Source: Escherichia coli (GTDB taxonomy: Bacteria > Pseudomonadota > Gammaproteobacteria > Enterobacterales > Enterobacteriaceae). Taken from it: a DNA stretch of 64,000 nucleotides. Positions 1 to 20,032 of the stretch are shown here, piece by piece; the stretch's first letter is position 1; each line of letters opens with the position of its first letter. Made by a program: the position numbers and the translations under genes. The stretch lies in NCBI RefSeq assembly GCF_013122565.1, contig NZ_CP053258.1, one strand, 5' to 3'. The notes below the pieces were generated by a model, which was not told the DNA's origin, ran no database searches, and saw only the letters and a list, made by a program, of their open reading frames with translations.

Positions 1-1
1 G

Positions 2-907
2 ATTCGTTGCCATCCGTACGTGCTGGAAGAGATGGAAGCGGCGAAGAACAATGACGTCAACGCGTTCGATAAACTGTTGTTCAAACATATCGGTCACGTC
101 GGTAGCAACAAAGTTCGCAGCTTCTGGCTGGGCCTGACGCGCGGTTTAACCAGCAGCACGCCAACCGGCGATGCCACTAAACGCTACTATCAGCACCTGA
201 ACCGCCTGAGCGCCAACCTCGCCCTGCTTTCTGATGTCTCGATGGCAGTGCTGGGCGGCAGCCTGAAACGTCGTGAGCGTATCTCGGCACGTCTGGGTGA
301 TATTTTAAGCCAGCTTTACCTCGCCTCTGCCGTTCTGAAGCGTTATGACGACGAAGGCCGTAATGAAGCCGATCTGCCGCTGGTGCACTGGGGCGTACAG
401 GATGCGCTGTATCAGGCAGAACAGGCGATGGACGATTTACTGCAAAACTTCCCGAACCGCGTGGTTGCCGGGCTGCTGAATGTGGTGATCTTCCCGACCG
501 GACGTCATTATCTGGCACCGTCTGACAAGCTGGATCATAAAGTGGCGAAGATTTTACAAGTGCCGAATGCCACCCGTTCACGTATTGGTCGCGGTCAGTA
601 CCTGACGCCAAGCGAGCATAACCCGGTTGGTTTACTGGAAGAGGCGCTGGTGGATGTAATTGCCGCCGACCCAATTCATCAGCGGATCTGTAAAGAGCTG
701 GGTAAAAACCTGCCGTTTACCCGTCTGGATGAACTGGCGCACAACGCGCTGGCGAAGGGGCTGATTGATAAAGATGAAGCCGCTATTCTGGTGAAAGCTG
801 AAGAAAGCCGTCTGCGCAGTATTAACGTTGATGACTTTGATCCGGAAGAGCTGGCGACGAAGCCGGTAAAGTTGCCGGAGAAAGTGCGGAAAGTTGAAGC
901 CGCGTAA
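2..907 (+). CDS. fadE: acyl-CoA dehydrogenase FadE, C-terminal part (gene starts upstream of window)
   Basis: ORF 20..907 frame is open to the window edge; translation recalled as FadE C-terminus; synteny with ivy and yafV. Confidence 0.85.
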
Positions 908-949
908 TTGAATAACGGAGCCGAAAGGCTCCGTTTCTTTATCGGCTAA

Positions 950-1423
950 TTATTTAAAATTAAAGCCATCCGGATGGTTTTCCAGGCTGCCGGTCAACGC
1001 CGCGAACAGCACCGTTTTACCATCAATCGAAAGCGCATCGTTCACATTCAACCAGGTGAGTTTCTCTTGCGACGTTTTCTCATCAATAGTCGAGAACAGC
1101 CCCGTCATCTGATTAGATTTCTCGGACCACATCACAGCGATACGTTGCGAGCCACAGTCATGCGGTTTGCACGCGCTCATCACCTGATACGTCTCATCTC
1201 CCAACGTTACGGTTTGTGCGGGAGTATAAGTACCGCCTTTCATCACCCAGGCAGGCAGCTTATGCCCTTGCACCATCTGATTAAACGCAGCTTTGGTGGT
1301 TTCGCCCTTTGCAAGGCTGCTAATGGTTAAATCATCCTGCGCCATTGCACTGGTGGCGATGACCAGAGCGGCGACTGTCGTTATTGCCTTAAACATCATT
1401 CCTCCCGGGCTTATCCTGCCCAT
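950..1423 (-). CDS. ivy: inhibitor of vertebrate lysozyme Ivy, periplasmic
   Basis: 157 aa ORF with N-terminal signal peptide; sequence recalled as Ivy; conserved position next to fadE. Confidence 0.9.
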   Translation of the reverse strand: MGRISPGGMMFKAITTVAALVIATSAMAQDDLTISSLAKGETTKAAFNQMVQGHKLPAWVMKGGTYTPAQTVTLGDETYQVMSACKPHDCGSQRIAVMWSEKSNQMTGLFSTIDEKTSQEKLTWLNVNDALSIDGKTVLFAALTGSLENHPDGFNFK

Positions 1424-1567
1424 GTTATTAACCTCCTAAAGCCTGGCGATAACACGATAATTTGCAAATCAGATATTTCCAATATCAGCATTTGTTATCA
1501 ATTTATTCTGCGCTAAGGCAACTGCCTGATAAGGTGTTAAAGTTATAAAACCCTTCGCATAAAGGAG

Positions 1568-2347
1568 TTGTACACCGTGCCTGGTTTGAAGATTACGCTT
1601 TTGCAGCAACCACTGGTGTGGATGGATGGTCCTGCCAACCTGCGCCATTTTGATCGTCAACTGGAAGGTATTACCGGGCGCGATGTGATCGTTCTACCGG
1701 AGATGTTTACCAGCGGCTTTGCCATGGAAGCGGCAGCTTCGTCGCTAGCACAAGATGACGTAGTGAACTGGATGACAGCTAAGGCGCAGCAGTGCAATGC
1801 GCTGATTGCAGGCAGTGTTGCATTACAAACGGAGTCTGGTTCGGTTAACCGCTTTTTGCTGGTTGAGCCGGGCGGCACGGTACATTTTTATGATAAGCGT
1901 CATCTGTTCCGCATGGCAGATGAGCATCTACATTATAAAGCGGGCAATGCGCGAGTGATTGTGGAATGGCGCGGCTGGCGTATTTTGCCGTTGGTGTGCT
2001 ACGACTTACGTTTTCCGGTGTGGTCGCGCAATCTCAACGATTATGACCTCGCCATCTACGTTGCCAACTGGCCTGCTCCGCGCTCTCTGCACTGGCAGGC
2101 CTTGCTGACAGCCCGCGCGATTGAGAATCAGGCGTATGTGGCGGGATGCAATCGCGTCGGCAGCGATGGCAACGGCTGCCATTATCGCGGTGACAGCCGG
2201 GTGATTAACCCGCAGGGCGAGATTATCGCTACTGCCGACGCGCATCAGGCAACACGCATTGATGCGGAGCTGTCGATGGTGGCATTGCGGGAATATAGAG
2301 AAAAGTTTCCGGCATGGCGGGATGCGGATGAGTTTAGGTTGTGGTGA
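1568..2347 (+). CDS. yafV: nitrilase-family omega-amidase YafV (2-oxoglutaramate amidase)
   Basis: 259 aa ORF; true start may be the GTG at 1577 (VPGLKITLLQQ); carbon-nitrogen hydrolase family; K-12 synteny. Confidence 0.85.
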   Translation: MYTVPGLKITLLQQPLVWMDGPANLRHFDRQLEGITGRDVIVLPEMFTSGFAMEAAASSLAQDDVVNWMTAKAQQCNALIAGSVALQTESGSVNRFLLVEPGGTVHFYDKRHLFRMADEHLHYKAGNARVIVEWRGWRILPLVCYDLRFPVWSRNLNDYDLAIYVANWPAPRSLHWQALLTARAIENQAYVAGCNRVGSDGNGCHYRGDSRVINPQGEIIATADAHQATRIDAELSMVALREYREKFPAWRDADEFRLW

Positions 2348-2449
2348 GTGGGTGTTGTGTTTAAGGCCGGGGAAGACTACGAAAGCCCCTAACTTAAACA
2401 CAATATTACGCCAGAAGTCACCATTTCCAAAACACAGCGCCGCTGTACC

Positions 2450-2683
2450 GTGGGTTATCTGCCCAACCGCAGCGACACGCCGGTGATCAAAATCAGCGCC
2501 AAATGGCTGAGAGAAGCGGGATTTGCGATCGGCACGGGCGTTACCGTGAGGATCTCGGAAGGCTGCCTGATCCTGCTTGCGGATAACAACGAAGTACAGG
2601 AACTGCGCAGGGAACTTTATCAGGTTAAACAGTCAGTTAAGGGGATGCGTGACGGGATGTTTAGTGTGCTGAACGAGAGTTAA
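2450..2683 (+). pseudogene. SymE-like (AbrB-fold type I toxin family) gene lacking an ATG start; possible GTG start at 2450
   Basis: Translation ...VIKISAKWLREAGFAIGTGVTVRISEGCLILLAD resembles the SymE C-terminal core; in-frame stop at 2396 and no ATG upstream. Confidence 0.5.
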
Positions 2684-2690
2684 ATAATAA

Positions 2691-2724
2691 AAAGCCGGGA
2701 AGATTTTATTTCCTACCCGGCTTT
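2691..2724. terminator. bidirectional hairpin between convergent SymE-like gene and immunity gene
   Basis: aaagccggg ... cccggcttt inverted repeat flanked by A and T runs. Confidence 0.45.
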
Positions 2725-2729
2725 TAACA

Positions 2730-3179
2730 TTAATGCTTCAAGGGGAATGACTTCATCAGTAATTCTTCTAAAGAAGAATATAAAAATTCCATTTCATAAG
2801 AGTCATGCAGAAAAACAAATATCTTACCATCTGTATTCATAAGAATAGGGTTTCCGCAGCCATCATCTGAAATAGCATAAAATGAATTCAATATATTTTT
2901 ATCAAGATCTTTATATATTTCCCTAAACTTCAGAGTAAGATCAACTACAGAAGCCTTTCCTACTAAGGAACCATTTTTAAAGGCATGTATAGCTATGCCA
3001 CCAAAGGCCCCACCAAATTTCTTAATAAACTCAATATATTGTATATTGAATTTAATATTTAATATTTTTTCAGCCTGAATGATCTCCTCATCAGAAGCTG
3101 GTATACCATATAGGACCATATCTTGGTCAGATGTTATCTCATCTCTGACTCTTGCTAGCAATTCTTCATTCATACGCAA
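2730..3179 (-). CDS. putative immunity protein (SMI1/KNR4, SUKH-like) for orphan rhs module 4
   Basis: 149 aa AT-rich ORF directly downstream of and overlapping the rhs tip; SUKH-like pattern. Confidence 0.55.
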   Translation of the reverse strand: MRMNEELLARVRDEITSDQDMVLYGIPASDEEIIQAEKILNIKFNIQYIEFIKKFGGAFGGIAIHAFKNGSLVGKASVVDLTLKFREIYKDLDKNILNSFYAISDDGCGNPILMNTDGKIFVFLHDSYEMEFLYSSLEELLMKSFPLKH

Positions 3180-4297
3180 CCGCCCCCTCTATTGCTTAAA
3201 ACTTTTTCAGCTTGTGATTTCCAGAATTCTTTTTTCCACAGGTTAAATTCTTGACGATTATTTATACCTGAACCTTTTTTATTTCCATTTGGGTGCTGAC
3301 CAGCGTTATTTGTACTTGAACCATGATGTTTATCTGGCATAGCAGTAATTGGCCCTTGTGATTGCTGCCTGTCATGGTGCAATACTATTACATTCCCTTG
3401 CCTATCGCTCGGAGATAAACCAAATGGATGAGGAGCATCATCACTGTTCATAAAAATAATTCTATTAAGCTCGGAATCACTTAAGTGACTTAAATCCGTG
3501 TAACCTGATACATCTAAAGTTAATCCTCTGCTATCAGTAAAAGTAACAGTTAAACCCAGAGGATCGATCCAACTTATTGGATTAGGCGCATATTGGTATA
3601 AGTTTATCCCACCCGCCAGCCCTATCGGGTCCTGACTGATAAACCTCCCGCACTCCGGCGCATAATACCTGAACAGATTGTAATGCAGTCCCGTCTCTTC
3701 ATCATAATACTGCCCCGGCAGCCGCAGCGGTTGCTCAAAGTACGCCCCGCTGTTGCTGATGTCGCCCCGGTTTTCACCAAATCCCGCCTGATAGCCCGCC
3801 CACACCAGCGTCCCGTCCGCCGCGGTCACCTCCTGTACCGTGCCCGTCAGGTCCGTGTGGTAATACCAGATTTTTTGACTCTCTCCGCGCCCGGTGATGG
3901 CGGCCACCGGCGTGTACGGCTGTTCCGCGTCGTACAGGTATGTCCGCTTTCCCTGCCACGTTGTCTCCTGCAACAGCCGGAACCCTTCCCACACAAACGT
4001 TGTCCGGCTTCGTTCTCCCCGGTCGGTATGGAGATTGCTGGTCGCCTTGCTGATGCGCCTGCCCAGCGCATCATACTGATACCGCGTCTCGCTGTTGCTG
4101 CTGATGACCCGCGTTAACTGACCCTGCGCGTTCCACTCCAGCTGTTGGTCCCTGCGCTCTGTCAGTTCGCCCCATTCGTTATAGCGGTAACGGTCACGCC
4201 CGTAGCCCGGCAGGCGGTTATCCGGCACCGCTCCCTGATGCTCATCCGTCAGCAGGTTGCCCGCTTTGTCGTAATAATAATGGTCATGGTCGTACAT
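3170..4297 (-). CDS. orphan Rhs C-terminal fragment 4: core repeat, DPLGL, His-rich HNH-like tip
   Basis: About 0.75 kb near-identical to the 3' core of the main rhs (homology to ~4335), then a divergent tip with VLHHDRQQSQGP...KHHG; no N-terminus of its own. Confidence 0.7.
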   Translation of the reverse strand: MYDHDHYYYDKAGNLLTDEHQGAVPDNRLPGYGRDRYRYNEWGELTERRDQQLEWNAQGQLTRVISSNSETRYQYDALGRRISKATSNLHTDRGERSRTTFVWEGFRLLQETTWQGKRTYLYDAEQPYTPVAAITGRGESQKIWYYHTDLTGTVQEVTAADGTLVWAGYQAGFGENRGDISNSGAYFEQPLRLPGQYYDEETGLHYNLFRYYAPECGRFISQDPIGLAGGINLYQYAPNPISWIDPLGLTVTFTDSRGLTLDVSGYTDLSHLSDSELNRIIFMNSDDAPHPFGLSPSDRQGNVIVLHHDRQQSQGPITAMPDKHHGSSTNNAGQHPNGNKKGSGINNRQEFNLWKKEFWKSQAEKVLSNRGGGCV

Positions 4298-4376
4298 CTG
4301 CCCCGTGCGACTGGTCAGCCAGCCGCTGCGATCATACGCAAAATGCCCCCATCCGCATGCAAGCAGTATTTATCCT

Positions 4377-4682
4377 TTAGGAAAAGAGATTTATAGCTTT
4401 CTCTTGAAGTTCTATACCTATATCCTCAAGTTTGATCAGCTCGTCCTTACTGTACATTCCCTCCCGAAAAGAAAACATTCCATATACATCCATTAGTGCC
4501 AATCCTAAAACTTTTGGAACCATAATTTCATCAGCATATATTTCCGCCAAAAAATCCAGCGCCTTATATAATTCTTCAATTTCATTATCAAAAAAATCTT
4601 TCTTGAGTCTTAATCTAACAGGTATTGAATCATCTCCTAATAATTTATCGACCACTATTTTCAATGCAATCTCTTTATCCAT
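4377..4682 (-). CDS. putative immunity protein for orphan rhs module 3
   Basis: 101 aa AT-rich ORF immediately downstream of the orphan toxin tip. Confidence 0.45.
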   Translation of the reverse strand: MDKEIALKIVVDKLLGDDSIPVRLRLKKDFFDNEIEELYKALDFLAEIYADEIMVPKVLGLALMDVYGMFSFREGMYSKDELIKLEDIGIELQEKAINLFS

Positions 4683-4698
4683 ATATCATTTCCTGTCT

Positions 4699-6315
4699 TT
4701 AACAAGATCTAATAGCATTTGATGGGACATGGCCTTCCACAAGTACTTCTCCAGAACTAACTGCATAGTTACGGGCTGGTCCTTTTAATCCAGCATCCGT
4801 TGCTTTCTCTACCGTGGATAAGTCAATAATATTCCGATTACCTTTAACATCAGGAATAACATCGTCAGTATCAAATGTAACTGTAGTTTGGCCTGGTTCA
4901 CGGTATCGTACTGCTACATATTCATTTACGGTAGTTGAAATGAATTGTGAGCCTTTAAACGAATCATTACTACCATTTCTAACATGACCAGCAGCGCTCA
5001 TTCCTCGCCCCGGGTTCTTTGCAGATAGCCCCTCACTAATAGATTCATCCGCACGAATATTTCGAAATACCTTGATTAAGCCAAGAGGATCAATCCAGCT
5101 AATCGGATTCGGCGCATACCTGTAAAGATTCAGACCGCCACGGATCGAAATCGGATCCTGACTGATAAACCTCCCGCACTCCGGCGCATAATACCTGAAC
5201 AGATTGTAATGCAGCCCCGTCTCTTCATCATAATACTGCCCCGGCAGCCGCAGTGGTTGCTCAAAGTACGCCCCGCTGTTGCTGATGTCGCCCCGGTTTT
5301 CGCCAAATCCCGCCTGGTAGCCCGCCCACACCAGCGTCCCGTCCGGCGCGGTCACCTCCTGTACCGTGCCCGTCAGGTCCGTGTGGTAATACCAGATTTT
5401 TTGACTCTCTCCGCGCCCCGTGATGGCTGCCACCGGCGTGTACGGCTGTTCCGCGTCGTACAGGTATGTCCGCTTCCCCTGCCACGTTGTCTCCTGTAAC
5501 AGCCGGAACCCTTCCCACACAAACGTCGTCTGCCGCTGTTCCCTCTGGTCCGTATGGCGGCCATATGTCGCCTTGCTGATGCGCCTGCCCAGCGCATCAT
5601 ACTGATACCGCGTCTCGCTGTTGCTGCTGATGACCCGCGTTAACTGGCCCTGCGCGTTCCACTCCAGTTGCTGGTCCCTGCGCTCTGTCAGTTCGCCCCA
5701 TTCGTTATAGCGGTAGCGGTCACGCCCGTAGCCCGGCAGGCGGTTATCCGGCACCGCTCCCTGATGCTCATCCGTCAGCAGATTGCCCGCTTTGTCGTAA
5801 TAATAATGGTCATGGTCGTACATCTGACCCGTGCGACTGGTCAGCCAGCCGCTGCGGTCATAGCTGAACACCAGGCAACCGCGCAGTTTGTCATTGATGC
5901 CGCCGACTTCACCGTCTGCGTTCCAGATATAATCCCGCGCTGTCACGCTGTCTTTCTGCGCCGGGGGGTTACCGGCCTGCTGCGGATTCTGGCTGCCGCC
6001 TGGCAGGCTGCGCTGCCAGCTTAACCGGTTATCGGCGTTGTAGCCGCTGAACGTCGCCAGTTTCCCCTGGGTGCGCATCACCTGACGGTGCAGGCTGTCA
6101 CGCTCATATTCACTGACCGTGATACCGTCCAGTGCCGTCTGGAGCAGATGCCCGCTGCCGTAGTAAAGATGGCTGAGATGCTGCCCGTCCGGCAGGGTAA
6201 TGCCGGTGGGATTGCCCAGCGCGTCACGCTGATATTTTATGCTGCCGTGCACGCTGTGCTCTGCCGTCAGCCAGCCGCTGCGGTCATACGCAAAACGCAC
6301 CGTGTCCGCCTGCAA
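4699..6315 (-). CDS. orphan Rhs C-terminal fragment 3: core repeat, DPLGL, ADP-ribosyltransferase-like tip
   Basis: About 1.4 kb rhs core homology; tip has VFRNIRAD...SQFISTT...GEVLVEG, resembling the pertussis-toxin S1 R / STS / E pattern. Confidence 0.7.
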   Translation of the reverse strand: MQADTVRFAYDRSGWLTAEHSVHGSIKYQRDALGNPTGITLPDGQHLSHLYYGSGHLLQTALDGITVSEYERDSLHRQVMRTQGKLATFSGYNADNRLSWQRSLPGGSQNPQQAGNPPAQKDSVTARDYIWNADGEVGGINDKLRGCLVFSYDRSGWLTSRTGQMYDHDHYYYDKAGNLLTDEHQGAVPDNRLPGYGRDRYRYNEWGELTERRDQQLEWNAQGQLTRVISSNSETRYQYDALGRRISKATYGRHTDQREQRQTTFVWEGFRLLQETTWQGKRTYLYDAEQPYTPVAAITGRGESQKIWYYHTDLTGTVQEVTAPDGTLVWAGYQAGFGENRGDISNSGAYFEQPLRLPGQYYDEETGLHYNLFRYYAPECGRFISQDPISIRGGLNLYRYAPNPISWIDPLGLIKVFRNIRADESISEGLSAKNPGRGMSAAGHVRNGSNDSFKGSQFISTTVNEYVAVRYREPGQTTVTFDTDDVIPDVKGNRNIIDLSTVEKATDAGLKGPARNYAVSSGEVLVEGHVPSNAIRSC

Positions 6316-6488
6316 CTAGCTGTTCAGATGGTGAATTTAACTACACCTTCTGGTTATCACCGTATTCAAGTGCCGCGATGCAACTACTGGGAAACTACAC
6401 TCATTCTCTTATTATTTTTAGAAATTTTCATCTATTAAATAATACACATGACCGATATTATTTAACCCTGCTGGGTATAACTGAAAAA

Positions 6489-7340
6489 TTATTTATTTTT
6501 AATTAAATTCATTAAATCCCAAACATTGCTATCATAATGATTGAAACCTTGAATCACAAGATAAGACAATGCTTTCATATCCAACAAAAATCTGATTTTC
6601 CCGTCTATAATTTTTGTATTTTCCGTTATAAACAATCGTTCCAATTTAACAAGATTACTTATTTTAGCTACGCTTGGAATATCACCCATTTTTGAAAAAG
6701 ATATTTTTTTAATTGAAGGTAATTTACTTACATCTTCAATGATTGACACTGCCATTTTTTTGCATAAAGATAAAGACACTTCTTCTATATTTTTCAAACC
6801 ATCTAAAAAAGTCGTGTCCGAAGCCTTAGATAATCCAGATAACTTGATGCTCCTTAAAGTCTTGATAGATGATAAATTAGGGATTGTTTGAATATTGCTA
6901 TTTTTTATCTCTAATGATTGCAAGAATGATCTCCCCGCAACATGCTCTTTTTTTTCTTTAAAATCTATCAATGTTATTTTTTCCAGAGTTCTGTGATTAA
7001 ACAAATTATCAATTCCATTTCGACCTATTAATACAGCCTCTTTTAAAAATGGGAAATATGATAAATCAAGTCTCATTTTATCATCATTCAAAAGATGGAT
7101 GAGTTGTATTTTTTTCAACGAATACAGTTGTGATATATCCTTTATTTTATTGCCTGTGATATATATTTCATTAATGAAATTAATTTCATCAAGAAATGAT
7201 AAATCAGTTATAAGCGGTGACAAAACCAACCCGTTAACTTTCTTTTCCTTCATCGTGTCAACAATATGACTTGTATCGTCATGCTTTTCATACACAAGGA
7301 CACGACTTCCCCGTACACCATAATTTTCCACTAGTCTCAT
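6489..7340 (-). CDS. putative immunity protein, leucine-rich-repeat-like, for orphan rhs module 2
   Basis: 283 aa AT-rich ORF with repeated L-rich segments, directly downstream of the orphan tip. Confidence 0.45.
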   Translation of the reverse strand: MRLVENYGVRGSRVLVYEKHDDTSHIVDTMKEKKVNGLVLSPLITDLSFLDEINFINEIYITGNKIKDISQLYSLKKIQLIHLLNDDKMRLDLSYFPFLKEAVLIGRNGIDNLFNHRTLEKITLIDFKEKKEHVAGRSFLQSLEIKNSNIQTIPNLSSIKTLRSIKLSGLSKASDTTFLDGLKNIEEVSLSLCKKMAVSIIEDVSKLPSIKKISFSKMGDIPSVAKISNLVKLERLFITENTKIIDGKIRFLLDMKALSYLVIQGFNHYDSNVWDLMNLIKNK

Positions 7341-7359
7341 ATATTTCCCCTTAAATAAA

Positions 7360-8820
7360 TCAACACTCCCCCTTCACTCTAAAATCTTGATCTGAAACAT
7401 TTCCTGTATTTGGTGGTCGTTTTTCATTACTGGTTACTCCTCTTCCTCCATTTTTAGCTATTTTCATTGCCTCTAAATTATTTAGCCATTGTTTACTAAT
7501 TCCAGCATATTTATCAAAATTCAACGAATCCAACATTGCCTGAGTTAACTTTCCACTTCGGGCATGTTGCAACATTCTCTGATATAGATTTTTTGTTTGA
7601 CCTGCATACATTTTACCCGCACCTTCATCAAAAAACTCATAAATTGCTTGCCCTTTATATTTTGCAGTAACATCTCTTATTTGTTCTAAAAAATCACTAG
7701 CGAGTCTTACTAATCCCCAAGGATCAATCCACCTCAGCGGATTCGGCGCATACCTGTAAAGATTCAGCCCACCCCGGATCGAAATCGGGTCCTGGCTTAT
7801 GAACCTTCCGCACTCCGGCGCATAATACCTGAACAGATTGTAATGCAGCCCCGTCTCTTCATCATAATACTGCCCCGGCAGCCGCAGCGGTTGCTCAAAG
7901 TACGCCCCGCTGTTGCTGATGTCGCCCCGATTTTCTCCAAATCCCGCCTGGTAGCCCGCCCACACCAGCCTCCCGTCCGGCGCGGTCACCTCCTGTACCG
8001 TGCCCGTCAGGTCCGTGTGGTAATACCAGATTTTTTGACTCTCTCCGCGCCCGGTGATGGCCGCCACTGGCGTGTACGGCTGTTCCGCGTCGTACAGGTA
8101 TGTCCGCTTTCCCTGCCACGTTGTCTCCTGCAACAGCCGGAACCCTTCCCACACAAACGTCGTCCGCCGCTGTTCCCTCTGGACCGTATGGCGGCCATAT
8201 GTCGCCTTGCTGATGCGCCTGCCCAGCGCATCATACTGATACCGCGTCTCGCTGTTGCTGCTGATGACCCGCGTTAACTGGCCCTGCGCGTTCCACTCCA
8301 GTTGCTGGTCCCTGCGCTCTGTCAGTTCGCCCCATTCGTTATAGCGGTAACGGTCACGCCCGTAGCCCGGCAGGCGGTTATCCATCACCGCGCTCTGATA
8401 CTCGTCCGTCAGCAGATTGCCCGCTTTGTCGTAATAATAATGGTCATGGTCGTACATCTGCCCCGTGCGGCTGGTCAGCCAGCCGCTGCGGTCATACGCA
8501 AAGCGCACCGTGTCCGCCTGCATGTGGTGCAGCCGTTCCCCTTCTTTCGTCGGGGTGAGCGTCACTTCCGTTATCTGGTCAAGACGGTTGTAGCTGAAGG
8601 TCCGTGTACTGTGCTGCGTGTCACTGCGCAACAGGCGGCCCAGCGCATCACGCTCCTGCCGCTCATTACGCCCCCCGCCTTCTGTACCCTGCGTCTGGAT
8701 GATGACCGGATACCCGCCCGCATTCAGCGCCAAATGGCTGAGAGAAGCGGGATTTGAGATCGGCACGGGCGTTACCGTGAAGATCTCGGAGGGATGTCTG
8801 ATCCTGCTTGCGGATAACAA
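7360..8820 (-). CDS. orphan Rhs C-terminal fragment 2: core repeat, DPWGL, GIY-YIG-like tip
   Basis: About 1.1 kb rhs core homology; tip has AIYEFFDEGAGKMYAGQTKNLYQRMLQH; the first ~30 codons are antisense to the SymE-like remnant. Confidence 0.7.
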   Translation of the reverse strand: MLSASRIRHPSEIFTVTPVPISNPASLSHLALNAGGYPVIIQTQGTEGGGRNERQERDALGRLLRSDTQHSTRTFSYNRLDQITEVTLTPTKEGERLHHMQADTVRFAYDRSGWLTSRTGQMYDHDHYYYDKAGNLLTDEYQSAVMDNRLPGYGRDRYRYNEWGELTERRDQQLEWNAQGQLTRVISSNSETRYQYDALGRRISKATYGRHTVQREQRRTTFVWEGFRLLQETTWQGKRTYLYDAEQPYTPVAAITGRGESQKIWYYHTDLTGTVQEVTAPDGRLVWAGYQAGFGENRGDISNSGAYFEQPLRLPGQYYDEETGLHYNLFRYYAPECGRFISQDPISIRGGLNLYRYAPNPLRWIDPWGLVRLASDFLEQIRDVTAKYKGQAIYEFFDEGAGKMYAGQTKNLYQRMLQHARSGKLTQAMLDSLNFDKYAGISKQWLNNLEAMKIAKNGGRGVTSNEKRPPNTGNVSDQDFRVKGEC

Positions 8821-8914
8821 CGAAGTACAGGAACTGCGCAGGGAGCTTTATCAGGTTAAACAGGCAGTTAAGGGGATGCGGGACGGGATGTTTAGTGTGC
8901 TGAACGAAAGTTAA
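8729..8914 (+). pseudogene. SymE-like 3' remnant (last ~62 codons) fused to an rhs-fragment boundary
   Basis: Near-identical to 2497..2683; homology to the first copy starts abruptly at the junction with rhs-core sequence (~8728). Confidence 0.45.
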
Positions 8915-8922
8915 ATAATAAA

Positions 8923-8955
8923 AAAGCCGGGAAGGTAAATAAGCTTCCCGGCTTT
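8923..8955. terminator. bidirectional intrinsic terminator hairpin
   Basis: 12 bp perfect stem aaagccgggaag / cttcccggcttt with 9 nt loop, flanked by A-run and T-run. Confidence 0.6.
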
Positions 8956-8975
8956 CCACAACAATTTTAACTTAA

Positions 8976-9464
8976 TTAATCATAAGCATCGCCGTAATTT
9001 TCATATTTCCAATAAATATATTTACCACCTGAGCTATATAATTTATGCAATAATTCTGTAAAAGTCATTGCAATAATTGGACAACTACCTACAACGCCAT
9101 GTATCTCATAATTGCTATCATAACAGCGTCCATTTCTTTCTGTAGAAAAATCAATGGATAAATAATCATTATTATCGGTCCTGCAAATTAAGTACCATGA
9201 AGATGATATATCATCCTCACATGGCTCACCAACTATAAATTTATTTGCCTGTAATATTTCATTATTTTTCAAAATAGTGAAGGAGATTTCCTGCTCTTCA
9301 GAGCAAAACAATTTTATTCCATTACATATTTTGTAAAAACGAACAACATCATCAGGATATTTTAAATAATCAGATGGTAATAAAGGCAAATTACCATCTG
9401 GTGGAATAACTTCACATCTGTTATCATTTTTTATCAAGTCAAGTAATTCATCAATGCCATTCAT
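8976..9464 (-). CDS. putative immunity protein (SUKH-like) for orphan rhs module 1
   Basis: 162 aa AT-rich ORF downstream of the orphan tip; LLPSDYLKY...FYKICNG pattern. Confidence 0.5.
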   Translation of the reverse strand: MNGIDELLDLIKNDNRCEVIPPDGNLPLLPSDYLKYPDDVVRFYKICNGIKLFCSEEQEISFTILKNNEILQANKFIVGEPCEDDISSSWYLICRTDNNDYLSIDFSTERNGRCYDSNYEIHGVVGSCPIIAMTFTELLHKLYSSGGKYIYWKYENYGDAYD

Positions 9465-9473
9465 ATTACCACC

Positions 9474-11312
9474 TTAAAAAATAACAGTATCAAACTTCCC
9501 AGAGTATATAAACTGGTTCAATGCCCGGTAATATGCTTCCCTACTGGCAACAGGAACATTTGCGGCATCAAACATTCGTTCAGTAAGATCTTTCATTTCT
9601 CTGCTACTTACTGTTGTCCAATCCACTTTCCCACCAACTCTTCTTCCGGTTTTCTGCTCTAACCAATCTCTATATACTTTTTTTGTTGCAGCATGATTAG
9701 CCTCGGATAATGCAATTGTTGGTGACTTTGAAGGATATTTCCCTCCATAAGATGGCACATTCTTAGACATCCAAATATCAAGCACACCATGATGGTTTTC
9801 TAAAGAGGAATTAATTGGTCGATAAGGAACAACATCAAACTCTTTAACTTCACCGCACTTAAGTCCAAGGGGATCTATCCACCCCAGCGGATTCGGCGCA
9901 TAAGCATACTGGTTCAGCCCACCCGCCAGCCCTATCGGGTCCTGGCTTACGAACCGCCCGCACTCCGGCGCATAATACCTGAACAGATTATAGTGCAGCC
10001 CCGTCTCTTCATCATAATACTGCCCCGGCAGCCGCAGCGGCTGTTCAAAGTACGCCCCGCTGTTGCTGATATCGCCCCGGTTTTCGCCAAATCCCGCCTG
10101 GTAGCCCGCCCACACCAGCGTCCCGTCCGCCGCGGTCACCTCCTGTACCGTGCCCGTCAGGTCCGTGTGGTAATACCAGATTTTTTGACTCTCTCCGCGC
10201 CCCGTGATGGCGGCCACCGGCGTGTACGGCTGTTCCGCGTCGTACAGGTATGTCCGCTTTCCCTGCCACGTTGTCTCCTGCAACAGCCGGAACCCTTCCC
10301 ACACAAACGTTGTCCGGCTTCGTTCTCCCCGGTCCGTATGGCGGCCATATGTCGCCTTGCTGATGCGCCTGCCCAGCGCATCATACTGATACCGCGTCTC
10401 GCTGTTGCTGCTGATGACCCGCGTTAACTGGCCCTGCGCGTTCCACTCCAGCTGCTGGTCCCTGCGCTCTGTCAGTTCGCCCCATTCGTTATAGCGGTAG
10501 CGGTCACGCCCGTAGCCCGGCAGGCGGTTATCCATCACCGCTCCCTGATATTCATCCGTCAGCAGGTTGCCCGCTTTATCGTAATAATAATGGTCATGGT
10601 CATACATCTGCCCCGTGCGGCTGGTCAGCCAGCCGCTGCGGTCATAGCTGAACACCAGGCAACCGCGCAGTTTGTCATTGATGCCGCCGACTTCACCGTC
10701 TGCGTTCCAGATATAGTCCCGCGCTGTCACGCTGTCGCTGTGTGACGGGGGTGTGGCTGTCTGCTGTGGGTTCTGGCTGCCGCCTGGCAGGCTGCGCTGC
10801 CAGCTTAACCGGTTGTCGGCGTTGTAGCCGCTGAACGTCGCCAGTTTCCCCTGGGTGCGCATCACCTGACGGTGCAGACTGTCACGCTCATATTCACTGA
10901 CCGTGATACCGTCCAGTGCCGTCTGGAGCAGATGTCCGCTGCCGTAGTAAAGATGGCTGAGGTGCTGCCCGTTCGGTAACGTGATGTCGGTGGGATTGCC
11001 CAGCGCGTCACGCTGATATTTTATGCTGCCGTGCACGCTGTGCTCTGCCGTCAGCCACCCGCTGCGGTCATACGCAAAGCGCACCGTGTCCGCCTGCATG
11101 TGGTGCAGCCGTTCCCCTTCTTTCGTCGGGGTGAGCGTCACTTCCGTTATCTGGTCAAGACGGTTGTAGCTGAAGGTCCGTGTACTGTGCTGCGTGTCAC
11201 TGCGCAACAGGCGGCCCAGCGCATCACGCTCCTGTCGCTCATTACGCACCCCGCCTTCTGTACCCTGCGTCTGGATGATGACCGGATACCCGCCCGCATT
11301 CAGCACAAACAT
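9474..11312 (-). CDS. orphan Rhs C-terminal fragment 1: core repeat, DPLGL, unassigned toxin tip
   Basis: About 1.6 kb homologous to main rhs (to ~11476, where an in-frame stop precedes it); first ATG at 11312; tip ~130 aa with no recognizable motif. Confidence 0.7.
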   Translation of the reverse strand: MFVLNAGGYPVIIQTQGTEGGVRNERQERDALGRLLRSDTQHSTRTFSYNRLDQITEVTLTPTKEGERLHHMQADTVRFAYDRSGWLTAEHSVHGSIKYQRDALGNPTDITLPNGQHLSHLYYGSGHLLQTALDGITVSEYERDSLHRQVMRTQGKLATFSGYNADNRLSWQRSLPGGSQNPQQTATPPSHSDSVTARDYIWNADGEVGGINDKLRGCLVFSYDRSGWLTSRTGQMYDHDHYYYDKAGNLLTDEYQGAVMDNRLPGYGRDRYRYNEWGELTERRDQQLEWNAQGQLTRVISSNSETRYQYDALGRRISKATYGRHTDRGERSRTTFVWEGFRLLQETTWQGKRTYLYDAEQPYTPVAAITGRGESQKIWYYHTDLTGTVQEVTAADGTLVWAGYQAGFGENRGDISNSGAYFEQPLRLPGQYYDEETGLHYNLFRYYAPECGRFVSQDPIGLAGGLNQYAYAPNPLGWIDPLGLKCGEVKEFDVVPYRPINSSLENHHGVLDIWMSKNVPSYGGKYPSKSPTIALSEANHAATKKVYRDWLEQKTGRRVGGKVDWTTVSSREMKDLTERMFDAANVPVASREAYYRALNQFIYSGKFDTVIF

Positions 11313-11517
11313 CCGTATCAGACCGTCCGGGCGCTGTTCTCCCGTCAGCCGTCCGTCCGCATCGTGACTGAACCGGTAAAGCGCTCCGTTGCCGTTGCTC
11401 AGACTGGCAATCCATCCCTCCGCGGTATAATGCCAGCGCGTCTCCCGTTTCTCTTCATCCGTGTGGCACGCCAGTTAACATACGTCTACTGACAAAACCA
11501 TTAGTCCAAACAAAATC

Positions 11518-16474
<4,957 letters not shown>

Positions 16475-16497
16475 AGAAAAATTCCTTTTATATTTTT

Positions 16498-18711
16498 TTA
16501 TTCAGAAACGTCCGGGGTAGGTAACGGGGCAATATCATCCGCAGTCATGGCTGTGCCGCCATCCGGATTCATATCAATGCCACTGCCAATGAGTTGCATA
16601 ACATCGCTGGTGTGCAGTAAAAGTTGTTTTCCGCAAAACTCAATCGAGCCATCCTTGTGTAATACAAGCGCTGCATTGCCGCAACGAAGGGTAAATTGAT
16701 CGCCAACATCCAGACGATATGTCGTTCCGACATTGATGGTTTGAGCCAGTTTGACGGAAAGACCATCATTTTTTGTGATGGTGGCATTACGGTCTTCTCC
16801 CACGCTGATGGTTTCATTTTTGACAATGGTTTTTATGCGATCGACCATGACCGTGTGGGTTTCATTGTTTTTTACCGTGGTATTGAGGTCTTTTTCCGCA
16901 TGGAACTTCACCTCTTCTGCCCCCGTTTTATCGTCAAAGCGCAGCATGTTTCCGTTGGTCGGCCCGCCATACAGCGAGTGGCTGAATATCCCGCTCTGCG
17001 AGGCCATACCCGGCAGTCCCCACGGCGGCATGGTGTCCTGGTTATAGGTGCGCCCTACAATGATCGGTAAATCCGGGTCGCCGTTTTTGAAATCCACCAG
17101 CACTTCCTGACCGATGCGCGGGATCTGGATCATGCCGAATCCTTTCCCTGCCCACGGATAGCTGACGCGGATCCAGCAGGAGCTGTTTTCGTCATTATTA
17201 CCGTAACGATCCCAGCCAAACTGCACCTTCACCCGTCCATATTTGTCCGTCCAGATTTCCTGCCCCGCCGGGCCGGTGACGATGGCGCTCTGCGGGCCTT
17301 TGGTGTGGGGTTTGCTCAGGGTTCGCTGTGGGCGGTAAACTTCGCTGGTTGGGTGCAGTTCAAACGTGGTGACATAGGTAAAATGCTGATCCTGGCCGCT
17401 GTGCTGCGCATTGTCCCGTAAAAACAGCGTGGTCTGTACCAGCAGGTATTCCTGATTAATTTCTGCCGTCGGGTGATTCATCAATGTAAAGGTGTACCCG
17501 GTCATGAGGGTACGGATATGACCGGCCCCATGTGCCCGGCTGCCTGGGCTACGCTGCGCTTCCATACGAATACGCGTCAACATCTCGCCTTCGCCCGTAG
17601 TGAAGTAATCACCAGGCCATTCGTAATGCTCGTATTCAGCATGACCGGTATCACGCGGACTGGCCACGGTACTTTTAAGCAGCGAACGAGGCTTCATAAA
17701 ATCAAAATCGTCCATCACCCACTTTCCAGTACGCAGCCTCTCACTGGCCGTAATGGTGTGAATAAATTCCTTATCCAGTTTCAGCCCTTCCTGGTGCCAC
17801 TCCACCAGTGGCGAGTCAGGGCACGCTTTATGACCATTGATGGCATCCGCCAGCACCAGCGTGTGGCTGTTCTCGCTGTGCTCAAACCACCAGTAAATTC
17901 CCCACTCCTGCATCAGGCGCTGGATGAAATCAAAATCCGTTTCACCGTACTGTACCTGCCAGGCACGAGGTGGATAATTTTCCACCAGCCGTTTTTCCAC
18001 CGGAAAGGAATATTCATCCAGTACTTCATCGAGAATATCCACCACGGTTTTATTCTGGAACGCTTTGTAGTCGCTGGTGTGGGTCAGCAGTTTCAGCCAC
18101 GGTTCAATGCGTAATTCATACGTTACCGAGCGGCCCTCATGGCCCACCACCCGCGCCGCTGTCACCAGCCCGCTGATATGCCGTTTGCCGCCGCCGTCCA
18201 GTTCGATATTGACGCACAGATCTTTGCCCACCATGGGCTGAAGCGGCAGGTTAGCAGCGGGGGAAACGTACCCCAGGTTCAGGGCGTCCGGCGTTTTAAG
18301 CTGTACTGTGTAGGAAAACAGATTCCCAAGCCCTTCCGAACCATTCATGCCTGCAAACAAAAGCATCTGCGGCGGCACCGCACTACCACTTACTGTGACG
18401 TTATGCGCCCCCGGACCACCTGCAGCAAGCGACGCCGCCGCATCCTGAACTGCACCAGCCATATCCGATATCCCTGCTGCGGCGGCTGCGGCTTGCGCAG
18501 CAGCTACTGCGGCTTTAACCAGACCTGACGGTTCCGGCAACGCACCAAACAGGTCCGCCGCTGCCTGTTCTACCATCTGCTCGGCTGCATCAGCTACATC
18601 GGTTGCGGCTGAACCAGGGCTTATACCACCACTTTCGCCAGCTATTGGTGGTGTGGTGATGACGGGTCCACCGTTTCCAACTGGTTTATTACCCGTAGAT
18701 ACAAAACTCAT
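16498..18711 (-). CDS. vgrG: VgrG spike protein (TssI) with ~95 aa Ala/Gly/Pro-rich N-terminal extension
   Basis: gp27/gp5-like motifs ([39 protein letters not shown]); AAGGAG RBS 7 nt before ATG at 18711. Confidence 0.9.
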
Positions 18712-18735
18712 GATATTTGCTCCTTTAATACCGGA

Positions 18736-19122
18736 TTAAAATCTAGCCCCTGGTGGCCAAAAAATATAAGTAATAACTCTCCATTGCCCGTCTTTATAAT
18801 GAAACCAACATGTCAGATTCAAATCCCCCTGCAAATTCCAGAACATTTCCTTAATAGGAACATCTTGAAATTCAGGATCTGTTATGCGATAAGTTTGATT
18901 CAAGCCGATATAATACTCACCAACAAATTTATATCGTGGCCTCACGAACTCATGAGCAGGCGGCCCATATTTTTTCATAAAAAAGATGTCATTACTTCCA
19001 TCATGTATATCATTTTCTTCATAATATTTGGTGGATTGAGCAACTGCAGAAGGCTTGAAAACATTCACTGTAGTTATGTAAGTTATTGAAAGAAAAATCA
19101 CTATAATGCAGAAAAATTTCAT
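18736..19122 (-). CDS. putative secreted immunity protein for HExxH effector 1
   Basis: 128 aa with N-terminal signal peptide; paralog of 20819..21181; overlaps effector stop. Confidence 0.5.
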   Translation of the reverse strand: MKFFCIIVIFLSITYITTVNVFKPSAVAQSTKYYEENDIHDGSNDIFFMKKYGPPAHEFVRPRYKFVGEYYIGLNQTYRITDPEFQDVPIKEMFWNLQGDLNLTCWFHYKDGQWRVITYIFWPPGARF

Positions 19123-19820: not shown

Positions 19821-19879
19821 TTTACTCTCATTAAATAATAATTATTTGTATCGAAAATATTATTTTATATATTACGAGT

Positions 19880-19905
19880 ATTGCCCCTTCAGCCGCAGCG
19901 CATCC
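19880..19905. repeat. short remnant of the tagF 3' coding end
   Basis: cagccgcagcgcatccacataccg matches tagF 3' end at ~23275..23300. Confidence 0.5.
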
Positions 19906-20032
19906 ACATACCGTCCTTCACTGCAGGGCAAGATTACGAAAGCCCGCCCCCCGCAAGGACTGACGCGAGGTAGTTTCTGTCCATGGCTGCTTTTCTCATC
20001 TTACGTCTTAACCCTGCCTTGGTTTCGCCGTA

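What the first reader, a model, noticed from the sequence alone, without database searches (positions are those of the whole stretch)
2730..3560. Orphan tip 4: HNH/colicin-DNase-like motif with SUKH immunity
The tip contains VIVLHHDRQQSQGP...KHHG, similar to the LHH...N...H core of HNH (beta-beta-alpha-Me) nucleases such as colicin DNases. The downstream 149 aa ORF has SMI1/KNR4 (SUKH) character, a family often paired with nuclease toxins.
Basis: partly seen in the sequence, partly recalled or inferred. Interest (0 to 1): 0.45.

Follow-up and report, generated by a model that had tools for sequence, protein, structure and literature searches.

The report
Orphan Rhs nuclease toxin with immunity
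This is a spare, unattached toxin tip of an E. coli Rhs contact-killing protein: a predicted LHH-type HNH nuclease followed by its SUKH antidote gene, an ordinary member of a toxin/immunity class described in 2011.

Summary
On the minus strand, 3170-4297 is an intact frame of about 790 nt of rhs core plus a 126-aa tip. The tip matches Pfam LHH (PF14411, HNH/EndoVII superfamily, E=6e-9). Its stop overlaps (ATGA) the start of a 147-aa SMI1/KNR4 (SUKH-1) gene (E=2e-15).

It is the last of four orphan tips downstream of a PAAR-Rhs, a DcrB-type chaperone, VgrG and a type VI secretion cluster beside yafV in an E. coli-like genome.

The family is Tox-LHH, not colicin DNase: no colicin-DNase profile hit, and hhalign against colicin E9 gave 1.3% probability.

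The toxin keeps LHH, H76, H86, N82 and W105. It belongs to a sub-clade in which the family's conserved Glu is Ala and an extra His (H75) appears. Against an 82%-identical E. coli allele, dN/dS is 0.055 (toxin) and 0.105 (immunity).

The substrate is unsettled: the one studied LHH toxin, YobL, behaved as an RNase in E. coli and a DNase in B. subtilis.

LHH+SUKH on Rhs was described in 2011-2012, and RefSeq already annotates a near-identical copy.

Side observation: relatives of this cassette sit in XerC-primase elements inserted at the rhs DPIGL codons.

The parts
3551..4361 (-). rhs core fragment of orphan 4, in frame with the tip and lacking the Rhs N-terminus. It ends in the PxxxxDPxGL region (DPIGL...DPLGL, with DPLGL at 3565-3551).
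   Evidence: 3548-4336 aligns without gaps to main rhs 12255-13043 at 92.1% identity, with identical runs up to 72 nt. 4314-4361 matches main 13447-13495. NCBIfam Rhs_assc_core 1.6e-26; Pfam RHS and RHS_repeat. The frame is open from about 4372, and the first ATG at 4297 is an internal Met of the core.
3170..3550 (-). Toxin tip: 126-aa Tox-LHH (HNH/EndoVII superfamily) domain plus stop codon.
   Evidence: Pfam LHH PF14411 E=6.1e-9 over ORF residues 293-364, nt 3421-3206. 358 representative clusters match at E<=1e-3, almost always at the extreme C-terminus. AlphaFold2 model pLDDT 91.3. AFDB hits are all LHH domains on Rhs, LXG or CdiA carriers.
3374..3382 (-). LHH tripeptide (tip residues L57 H58 H59) at the end of predicted strand 1.
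   Evidence: H58 is present in 140/141 and H59 in 138/141 family domains. Predicted strand 54-59. Zhang 2011 assigns the first His to metal binding and the second to water activation.
3293..3343 (-). Rest of the predicted active site: A70 (3343-3341, where the family has Glu), H75 and H76 (3328-3323), N82, H86 (3295-3293).
   Evidence: Column counts: E70 122/141, H76 132/141, N82 120/141, H86 140/141. Of 19 domains lacking E70, 13 have H75; of 122 with E70, only 2 do.
3485..3487 (-). H22 in the conserved DLSHL element of an N-terminal extension (tip residues 1-43) that lies outside the Pfam LHH model.
   Evidence: Invariant in the 37-sequence alignment A2 and present in 120 of the 124 domains that cover this column. 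The Pfam match starts at tip residue 44.
2730..3173 (-). Immunity gene, 147 aa, SUKH-1 (SMI1/KNR4). Its ATG overlaps the toxin stop codon (ATGA).
   Evidence: SMI1_KNR4 2e-15, SUKH_5 9.2e-13, SUKH_6 2.7e-12. A SUKH gene lies immediately downstream of the LHH tip in every context examined: L001, L002, L003, L004, L005, L006, L007, L008.
2690..2725 (.). Hairpin (AAAAGCCGGG...CCCGGCTTTT followed by a T-run) between the convergent immunity and symE-like genes. It is a likely terminator for the immunity gene.
   Evidence: Folded energy -19.3 kcal/mol, z = -5.1, and 0 of 200 shuffles fold as well. The consensus scan missed it because the apical region is longer than that scan allows.
2397..2683 (+). 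symE-like remnant, convergent with the cassette and co-inherited with it.
   Evidence: NCBIfam SymE 1.3e-10. There is a stop where the 109-aa homologue has its ATG, plus an internal deletion. Homology to the cassette in other genomes runs 2397-3697.
11871..18711 (-). Delivery context: full-length PAAR-Rhs (11871-16010), DcrB/Eag-type chaperone (16031-16474) and VgrG (16498-18711). This is the likely recombination partner and export route for the tip.
   Evidence: The ORF translation shows [10 protein letters not shown], predicted transmembrane stretches and two PAAR strings. DcrB Pfam 2.7e-35. The region is 95% identical to one annotated as Rhs, DcrB-related and T6SS Vgr in PapRG-06-5.

Best explanation
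Window 2730-4361 (minus strand) is an orphan Rhs C-terminal cassette, the fourth and last behind a T6SS-linked PAAR-Rhs gene. It encodes about 790 nt of rhs core fused in frame to a 126-aa Tox-LHH domain, a divergent HNH/EndoVII (His-Me finger) metal-dependent nuclease. A cognate 147-aa SUKH-1 immunity protein is translationally coupled to it. Shown: the domain assignments, the intact frame, retention of nearly all family-conserved residues, strong purifying selection, invariable LHH-SUKH adjacency, and gapless in-frame homology to the main rhs. Inferred: (a) as it stands, the tip has no delivery domain and is not exported; (b) one RecA-dependent crossover within the 789-nt homology would fuse it to the main Rhs and delete about 8.7 kb (the resident deaminase tip and orphans 1-3), after which the shell-enclosed toxin would be fired by the adjacent VgrG/T6SS into neighbouring cells, as shown for Salmonella orphan Rhs; (c) in the target, H59 activates water and H58, H76, H86 (and in this sub-clade probably H75 in place of the usual Glu) hold the metal to cut nucleic acid, either DNA or RNA; (d) the SUKH protein binds the toxin and blocks it, protecting the carrier both after such a switch and against kin that already deploy this toxin.
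For: Pfam LHH E=6.1e-9 and the Rhs core domains. SUKH-1 E=2e-15. ATGA overlap and a Shine-Dalgarno-like run. 789-nt gapless, in-frame homology at 92.1% identity with identical runs up to 72 nt. Main Rhs with PAAR strings, DcrB chaperone and VgrG immediately upstream. Family-wide conservation of H58, H59, Q62, G66, H76, N82, H86, R99 and W105, all present here. The domain lies at the extreme C-terminus in nearly all of 159 domain hits among the 152 proteins held (the best 150 of 358 matching clusters plus first-search hits), and the long carriers are Rhs/YD proteins. A SUKH gene lies immediately downstream in all eight related loci examined, including contig-truncated or full Rhs-LHH genes. dN/dS is 0.055 for the toxin and 0.105 for the immunity gene against the 82%-identical E. 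coli allele, with dS of 0.8-1.06. The AlphaFold2 model is confident (pLDDT 91.3) and shows a hairpin (54-59, 68-72) followed by helices. GC drops from about 0.60 in the core to about 0.33 in the tip and immunity gene. Literature: LHH and SUKH defined together, with proposed roles for the His residues; Tox-LHH listed with T6SS, RHS and Imm-SUKH; a Neisseria Rhs effector (Nte3) carries a predicted LHH domain, and the authors built constructs to express it with and without its immunity gene, but I did not read the result for that pair; orphan Rhs activation by recombination (Koskiniemi 2014, PMC3967940, listed).
Confidence: 0.8

Rival explanations
1. The cassette works in place as an internally expressed toxin-antitoxin-like module. 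Transcripts starting inside the rhs core yield a cytoplasmic toxin fragment that is held in check by the SUKH protein and modulates the carrier's own growth. This is not exclusive of the main explanation.
For: Starsta et al. 2020 report internal promoters in Salmonella rhs ORFs, toxic internal products and TA-like behaviour of main and orphan Rhs. The orphan here has an in-frame ATG at 4297 preceded by GGGG. Purifying selection on a toxin seen only in the orphan position in E. coli would be easier to explain if it were expressed.
Against: No sigma-70-like site above the shuffle expectation lies in or upstream of the orphan. The ATG at 4297 is simply a conserved internal Met that the main rhs and orphans 1-3 share. 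The only Met close to the tip (FMNSDD, used by RefSeq for a 93-aa 'HNH/ENDO VII' CDS) would remove tip residues 1-33, including the invariant H22.
Confidence: 0.2
2. The toxin is a dead relic and only the immunity gene matters. It would be an orphan immunity gene retained for protection against neighbours that fire LHH toxins.
For: The family's conserved Glu is missing. Related orphan copies show decay: H22Y in JNE120442 and a frameshift in K. aerogenes. Arrays of orphan immunity genes are well known.
Against: The frame is intact over 375 codons, and every other conserved residue is present. Toxin dN/dS of 0.055 is lower than that of the immunity gene. The Glu-less state is shared by a whole sub-clade of at least 16 clusters at 50% identity, including a contig-truncated Rhs gene, and most of these have the compensating H75.
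Confidence: 0.12
3. The enzyme is an RNase (rRNA or other RNA) rather than the DNase the first reader proposed.
For: A review table lists YobL, with Pfam LHH, as an rRNase, and a 2026 preprint calls the class 'LHH RNase'. YobL's C-terminal domain showed RNase activity in E. coli.
Against: YobL induction in B. subtilis depleted chromosomal DNA and produced anucleate cells. Most characterised His-Me finger toxins are DNases (table). This tip belongs to a different LHH sub-clade from the LXG toxins.
Confidence: 0.3
4. It is a true member of the colicin E-type DNase family.
For: Local motif likeness: VLHHDRQQSQG in the tip against ELHHDKPISQG in colicin E9. The E9 sequence was verified against PDB 1BXI.
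Against: No Colicin-DNase Pfam hit even at E<=10. hhalign of the family profile against E9 gave 1.3% probability and aligned a different region. The immunity protein is SUKH, not a four-helix Im protein.
Confidence: 0.02

Closest known systems
Tox-LHH / Imm-SUKH polymorphic toxin pairs (Zhang, Iyer & Aravind 2011, PMC3113570; Zhang et al. 2012, PMC3482391; Pfam PF14411 + PF09346)
   Same: Profile match, LHH tripeptide, two downstream conserved His residues, conserved Trp, position at the extreme C-terminus of an Rhs carrier, T6SS linkage, and a SUKH-1 gene immediately downstream.
   Different: The signature Glu on strand 2 is Ala here, with an extra His at position 75, a state shared by a small sub-clade. 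A conserved 43-residue N-terminal extension with an invariant His lies outside the Pfam model.
B. subtilis YobL-YobK (LXG/T7SS toxin with an LHH C-terminal domain; YobK is the SUKH-1 structure 2PRV)
   Same: Same toxin Pfam family and same immunity superfamily. It is the only LHH member with activity data. LXG-LHH proteins were recovered by the family profile.
   Different: Gram-positive T7SS/LXG carrier rather than Rhs/T6SS. It belongs to the Glu-containing majority of the family. I did not compare the sequences directly.
Neisseria cinerea Nte3-Nti3 (Custodio et al. 2021, PMC8263058)
   Same: A T6SS-associated Rhs effector whose C-terminus is predicted to be Pfam LHH. The authors built arabinose-inducible constructs to express it in E. 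coli with and without its immunity gene.
   Different: Nte3 is a full-length Rhs effector rather than an orphan. I did not read the toxicity result for this pair, its substrate was not determined, and the sequence relationship was not tested here.
Salmonella Typhimurium orphan Rhs (Koskiniemi et al. 2014, PMC3967940; Starsta et al. 2020, PMC7043789) and the C-terminal displacement model (Jackson et al. 2009, PMC2935791)
   Same: A core fragment plus tip plus immunity gene lying downstream of a full-length rhs, with in-frame homology that permits recombinational activation.
   Different: A different toxin domain, and four orphans in series rather than one. No recombinant was observed here.
Colicin E9/E7 DNase - Im9/Im7
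   Same: Same superfamily (His-Me finger). There is a local LHHD..SQG likeness, and the predicted metal site is all-His.
   Different: No profile-level relationship was detected. The immunity fold and the delivery route also differ.

Membership tests
Tox-LHH (Pfam PF14411) | Significant match to the family profile | tested here: met
   E=6.1e-9, 36.4 bits, model positions 9-75 of 76. AFDB50 hits are LHH-domain proteins with TM-scores up to 0.89.
Tox-LHH (Pfam PF14411) | LHH tripeptide at the end of the first strand | tested here: met
   L57 H58 H59, nt 3382-3374, at the end of predicted strand 54-59.
Tox-LHH (Pfam PF14411) | Two further conserved His residues downstream, the proposed metal ligands (Zhang 2011) | tested here: met
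   H76 (132/141 in the family) and H86 (140/141) are both present.
Tox-LHH (Pfam PF14411) | Conserved Glu of the published signature 'N, LHH, E, H, H, W' | tested here: not met
   Position 70 is Ala. Glu occurs in 122/141 relatives. 13 of the 19 Glu-less domains, including this one, instead carry His at position 75. This places the tip in a divergent sub-clade rather than outside the profile-defined family.
Tox-LHH (Pfam PF14411) | Conserved Asn and Trp of the signature | tested here: met
   N82 (120/141), W105 (128/141) and W110 (130/141) are all present.
Tox-LHH (Pfam PF14411) | C-terminal module of a polymorphic toxin carrier (Rhs, CdiA, LXG) | tested here: met
   The tip follows the Rhs DPLGL motif directly. 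Relatives end within a few residues of the protein C-terminus and sit on Rhs/YD, LXG or CdiA carriers.
His-Me finger / HNH-EndoVII superfamily | Beta-beta-alpha-metal fold | tested here: inconclusive
His-Me finger / HNH-EndoVII superfamily | Metal-dependent nuclease activity | not testable with these tools
   This needs an enzyme assay. The only family data are for YobL, and they conflict on RNA versus DNA.
SUKH-1 (SMI1/KNR4, PF09346) immunity | Profile match over the full domain | tested here: met
   E=2e-15, model positions 1-124 of 125; SUKH_5 and SUKH_6 also match.
SUKH-1 (SMI1/KNR4, PF09346) immunity | Encoded immediately downstream of, and co-inherited with, the toxin | tested here: met
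   ATGA overlap. The same adjacency holds in eight related loci. Immunity homologues occur on the same contigs as toxin homologues.
SUKH-1 (SMI1/KNR4, PF09346) immunity | Binds and neutralises the cognate toxin | not testable with these tools
   This needs co-expression rescue and pull-down experiments.
Orphan Rhs-CT cassette | rhs core fragment lacking the N-terminal delivery region, in frame with a tip, downstream of a full-length rhs | tested here: met
Colicin E-type DNase (PF12639) | Profile match, or profile-profile relationship to colicin E9 DNase | tested here: not met
   No hit at E<=10. hhalign probability 1.3%.
Colicin E-type DNase (PF12639) | Im-type four-helix immunity protein | tested here: not met
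   The immunity protein is SUKH-1. The nature of Im proteins is from my own knowledge.

The most novel reading that the evidence does not exclude
The tip-immunity-symE unit may not be merely a decayed rhs duplicate. It may be the cargo, or the scar, of a roughly 7-kb integrative element (HTH, about 980-aa CHC2 primase, XerC-type tyrosine recombinase, symE). That element inserts site-specifically at the DPIGL codons, 78 nt before the end of the rhs core, placing its own tip in frame on the resident rhs and pushing the old tip downstream. If so, this would be the episomal circular tip carrier with its own recombinase that Jackson et al. [quoted passage not shown] The element and its precise junction are seen in other genomes. 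In the window only the symE remnant and a cassette-specific core end remain, so the link to this particular cassette is inferred. I could not establish whether the element has already been described outside the searchable library.
Probability: 0.35. Interest if true: 0.65.

Novelty: new member of a known kind. Interest (0 to 1): 0.2.

Why it matters
As annotation, it matters little. It adds one more predicted nuclease effector and immunity pair to the large E. coli Rhs repertoire, and RefSeq already labels a 99.9% identical copy 'HNH/ENDO VII family nuclease' and 'SMI1/KNR4 family protein'.

Three points could interest specialists:
- No LHH domain has a solved structure, and the substrate (DNA or RNA) is contested. 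This small, confidently modelled domain with its immunity partner would be a reasonable target to settle both questions.
- This sub-clade appears to have exchanged the family's Glu for a neighbouring His. That is a natural experiment on the metal site of a His-Me finger.
- The relatives of this cassette led to XerC-primase elements inserted at a fixed site in rhs. If unpublished, that would give a concrete mechanism for how new Rhs tips arrive.

Tried and rejected
- PDB sequence searches with the tip alone and with the 37-sequence profile gave only noise; the RhsP2 hit is a His-tag artefact.
- hhalign of the family profile against colicin E9 DNase showed no relationship. The colicin-family reading is rejected.
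- The weak Ntox47 hit (E=0.024) overlaps the core/tip boundary and was disregarded.
- NCBIfam has no model for the immunity protein or for the other tips.
- Rfam at gathering threshold over 1-20000 found nothing, so there is no SymR-like RNA.
- The promoter and terminator consensus scan over 2300-4800 found nothing above the shuffle expectation and missed the hairpin at 2690-2725, which I folded separately.
- The word-index protein search found only 4 toxin relatives, so the exhaustive representative search was needed.
- The PDB sequence search with the immunity protein found nothing significant.
- The two SUKH immunity proteins in the array, for orphans 1 and 4, show no pairwise similarity, so cross-protection is unlikely.
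- tblastn with the XerC, primase and HTH proteins found no remnant in the window, L001 or L005.
- A pattern search for the element's right end found none in the window.
- Three literature searches for a recombinase-borne Rhs tip element found no description.
Full report
**What is at the coordinates.**
On the minus strand, 3170-4297 is a 375-aa ORF, and 2730-3179 is a 149-aa ORF as listed. The reading frame of the first ORF is open from about 4372. It begins with rhs core sequence ([20 protein letters not shown]...), runs through ...[27 protein letters not shown], and then continues for 126 residues to a TGA at 3172-3170. The quoted strings VIVLHHDRQQSQGP and KHHG are there; LHH is at nt 3382-3374. 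The second gene most likely starts at the ATG at 3173-3171. That ATG overlaps the toxin stop as ATGA and follows a GAGGGGG run, which gives 147 aa, the length RefSeq uses for the identical protein. A strong hairpin at 2690-2725 follows it (-19.3 kcal/mol, z = -5.1). G+C falls from about 0.60 in the core to about 0.33 in the tip and immunity gene.

**Domain assignments.**
Pfam places ORF residues 293-364 in LHH (PF14411, 'a nuclease of the HNH/ENDO VII superfamily with conserved LHH', E=6.1e-9). The upstream part falls in RHS, RHS_repeat and the YD-shell, and NCBIfam gives Rhs_assc_core at 1.6e-26. The downstream protein is SMI1_KNR4 (SUKH-1, E=2e-15) and also matches SUKH_5 and SUKH_6. No colicin-DNase profile appears at any threshold shown.

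**Context.**
- 1-2347 holds fadE (3' end), ivy and yafV, 97.8-98.5% identical to E. coli genomes.
- Upstream of the finding, in rhs orientation, lie VgrG (16498-18711), a DcrB-type chaperone (16031-16474, Pfam DcrB 2.7e-35) and a 1379-aa Rhs (11871-16010). The N-terminus of that Rhs shows [10 protein letters not shown], hydrophobic stretches and two PAAR strings, and its tip is a Deam_C deaminase (1e-15).
- Four orphans follow:
  - orphan 1 (9474-11312): Tox-SHH, 5e-27, with a SUKH-1 immunity gene (8976-9464, 9.5e-7);
  - orphan 2 (7360-8820): GIY-YIG, with a leucine-rich-repeat immunity gene;
  - orphan 3 (4699-6315): a weak DUF7587 hit, assigned by elimination;
  - orphan 4: the finding.
- Orphan 4 shares 789 nt with the main rhs (3548-4336 against 12255-13043). 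The match is gapless, in frame and 92.1% identical, with identical runs up to 72 nt. A single homologous crossover could therefore graft the LHH tip onto the delivery-competent Rhs.

**The toxin family.**
- The word-index search found only four relatives.
- An exhaustive profile search found 358 clusters at 50% identity with E<=1e-3, 88 of them at E<=1e-10.
- Among the 152 proteins held (the best 150 of those clusters plus first-search hits), 159 domain hits were found. All but seven end within 19 residues of the protein C-terminus.
- The long carriers tested are Rhs/YD proteins. Others are LXG (T7SS) or CdiA proteins.
- In 141 aligned domains the conserved positions are L57 (128), H58 (140), H59 (138), Q62 (137), G66 (135), P72 (127), H76 (132), N82 (120), H86 (140), R99 (139), W105 (128) and W110 (130). 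The window's tip has all of them.
- It also has H22, in a conserved N-terminal extension that the Pfam model does not cover.

There is one departure. Position 70 is Glu in 122 of 141 domains and is listed in the published signature 'N, LHH, E, H, H, W', but it is Ala here. Of the 19 Glu-less domains, 13 carry His at position 75. Of the 122 with Glu, only 2 do. This pattern is confined to the clade of closest relatives, so it is probably one evolutionary event. I read it, as inference, as relocation of an active-site ligand.

**Structure.**
AlphaFold2 with the 37-sequence alignment gives pLDDT 91.3 and pTM 0.85. Strands are at 2-5, 11-16, 54-59 and 68-72, and helices at 25-34, 82-85 and 99-121. 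The HH dyad ends strand 54-59, and N82 and H86 flank the short helix, which fits a beta-beta-alpha arrangement.

No solved structure matches:
- Foldseek against PDB found nothing at E<1;
- profile and sequence searches of PDB found nothing.

AFDB50 returns only other LHH domains. Assignment to the His-Me finger superfamily therefore rests on the published profile analyses, not on anything I could verify independently. A direct test against colicin E9 DNase, whose sequence I verified against 1BXI, was negative at 1.3% hhalign probability.

**Is the orphan alive?**
- Only 4 of 5426 complete E. coli genomes carry the tip DNA. One copy is 99.9% identical and sits at the same yafV locus. Three are about 82% identical and sit at other rhs loci. 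All four are in the orphan position.
- Between the window and the 82% allele, dN/dS is 0.055 for the toxin (dS 0.80) and 0.105 for the immunity gene (dS 1.06). Both proteins have therefore been under strong constraint for most of their divergence.
- Decay does occur elsewhere. The JNE120442 allele has H22Y, and the Klebsiella aerogenes copy is frameshifted near the C-terminal helix.
- LHH followed immediately by SUKH recurs in every related locus examined. These include a contig-truncated Rhs-LHH gene in an NCBI assembly and a 1167-aa YD protein next to an SpvB/Tc-like gene.

**Mechanism and its uncertainty.**
The best-supported reading is a silent effector/immunity cassette, as set out under 'best explanation'. 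The substrate is the weakest point. The only studied Pfam-LHH toxin is YobL of B. subtilis, whose immunity protein YobK is the SUKH-1 structure 2PRV. YobL is tabulated as an rRNase from expression of its C-terminal domain in E. coli. Yet its induction in B. subtilis depleted chromosomal DNA and gave anucleate cells. A Neisseria T6SS Rhs effector (Nte3) is annotated as carrying an LHH domain, and constructs with and without its immunity gene were made. I did not read the toxicity result for that pair, and no substrate was determined. Internal, TA-like expression of orphans, as reported in Salmonella, cannot be excluded. No convincing promoter was found.

**Comparison with the known, and novelty.**
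LHH domains, their SUKH immunity partners and their placement on Rhs/T6SS carriers were described in 2011-2012 and classified again in 2017. RefSeq already names the near-identical E. coli proteins. This is a new, uncharacterised member of a known kind. Its only mildly unusual features are the Glu-less, His-75 sub-clade and the conserved N-terminal extension. Interest is low.

**Side observation, outside the window.**
In E. coli JNE120442, 200164, SCU-113 and MP1, tip-immunity pairs are followed, in rhs direction, by this series:
1. a convergent symE;
2. an HTH gene;
3. a CHC2 primase of about 980 aa;
4. a XerC-type tyrosine recombinase;
5. an 80-84-nt remnant of the rhs core, followed by a different tip.

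The pairs include the 82% allele of this cassette. In MP1 the first such unit follows the full-length rhs directly.

The element's right end is conserved...GGCGGTAGCGTGTTAAAAAGT..GACC...ACCGGATCGTCCCGATGA. It abuts the DPIGL codons (YCCGATAGGG) at all seven junctions in these four genomes. The same junction lies directly upstream of the LHH tip homologue in K. aerogenes.

The element DNA matches 130 of 5426 complete E. coli genomes, with at least 80% coverage in 54. All matches are chromosomal, and in every listed record where most of the element matched, an Rhs feature (an RHS-core CDS or the displaced HNH tip) lies under the match.

In the window, only symE remnants remain (2397-2683 and 8618-8914), together with a cassette-specific core end: the last roughly 90 nt of the core are only about 70% identical to the main rhs. 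tblastn finds no recombinase or primase remnant.

Jackson et al. [quoted passage not shown] My literature searches found no description of this element, but they cover open-access papers and bioRxiv only.

Noticed in passing
L003 5700-13800; L002 5680-13000; L009 5165-21130; L010 9970-25563; L005 9775: An element of about 7 kb (symE, HTH, CHC2 primase of about 980 aa, XerC-type tyrosine recombinase) lies downstream of Rhs tip/immunity pairs. It ends in a conserved sequence (...CCGGATCGTCCCGATGA) joined exactly to the rhs DPIGL codons, 78 nt before the core end. This was seen at 7 junctions in 4 E. coli genomes and once in K. aerogenes, directly upstream of the LHH tip homologue. Each junction is followed by a different displaced tip. 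The element DNA matches 130 of 5426 complete E. coli genomes (at least 80% coverage in 54). It looks like a site-specific vehicle for Rhs C-terminal displacement, and I found no description of it in the searchable literature.
   Followed up: partly
window 2397-2683 (+) and 8618-8914 (+): Two symE-family remnants lie convergent to the immunity genes of orphans 4 and 1. The first has a stop codon where the 109-aa homologue has its ATG, plus an internal deletion. The second is cut at its 5' end by an rhs core fragment (8474-8728). The same tip-immunity-symE order recurs in other E. coli and in K. aerogenes. No SymR-like RNA was found in Rfam.
   Followed up: partly
window 4377-16010 (-): Composition of the rest of the array. 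The main Rhs tip is a Deam_C putative cytidine deaminase (PF24241, 1e-15) with a 119-aa immunity protein that has no Pfam hit. Orphan 1 is Tox-SHH (5e-27) with a SUKH-1 immunity protein (9.5e-7). Orphan 2 is GIY-YIG (9.8e-5) with a 283-aa leucine-rich-repeat immunity protein. Orphan 3 has a weak DUF7587 hit (4e-4, assigned by elimination) with a 101-aa immunity protein. The two SUKH immunity proteins in the array share no detectable pairwise similarity.
   Followed up: partly
window 3323-3343 (-); alignment of 141 LHH domains: Within the LHH family, loss of the conserved Glu at position 70 goes with gain of His at position 75: 13 of 19 Glu-less domains have it, against 2 of 122 with Glu. The pattern is confined to the clade that contains this tip. 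It may reflect relocation of a metal or active-site ligand. Relatedness among the sequences was not controlled for.
   Followed up: partly
window 3422-3550 (-): Tip residues 1-43 (two strands and a helix in the model, with an invariant His in a DLSHL motif) are conserved across the family but lie outside the Pfam LHH model. The 93-aa 'HNH/ENDO VII family nuclease' CDS that RefSeq calls from the internal Met would lack this part.
   Followed up: no
L002 12444-12998; L005 9775-10279: Related orphan copies show signs of decay. The JNE120442 allele has H22Y at the invariant His, and the K. aerogenes copy has a frameshift that replaces the C-terminal helix.
   Followed up: no
window 3548-3640 (-) against 12255-12345: The last roughly 90 nt of orphan 4's core are only about 70% identical to the main rhs, against 92-98% further upstream. 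In other genomes the cassette carries only about 145-180 nt of core. The imported unit therefore seems to begin near the DPIGL codons.
   Followed up: partly
window 4314-4361 and 8474-8728 against main 13044-13446: Orphans 2 and 4 share a deletion of about 400 nt of core lying between two YDRSGWLT-coding direct repeats. The main rhs and orphans 1 and 3 retain this segment.
   Followed up: no
window 1-2400: The fadE-ivy-yafV backbone matches all 5426 complete E. coli genomes at 95-99% identity but none at 99% or more (best 98.5%). The only near-identical copy of the cassette is in a baboon isolate from Gambia. The source lineage seems poorly represented among complete genomes.
   Followed up: no
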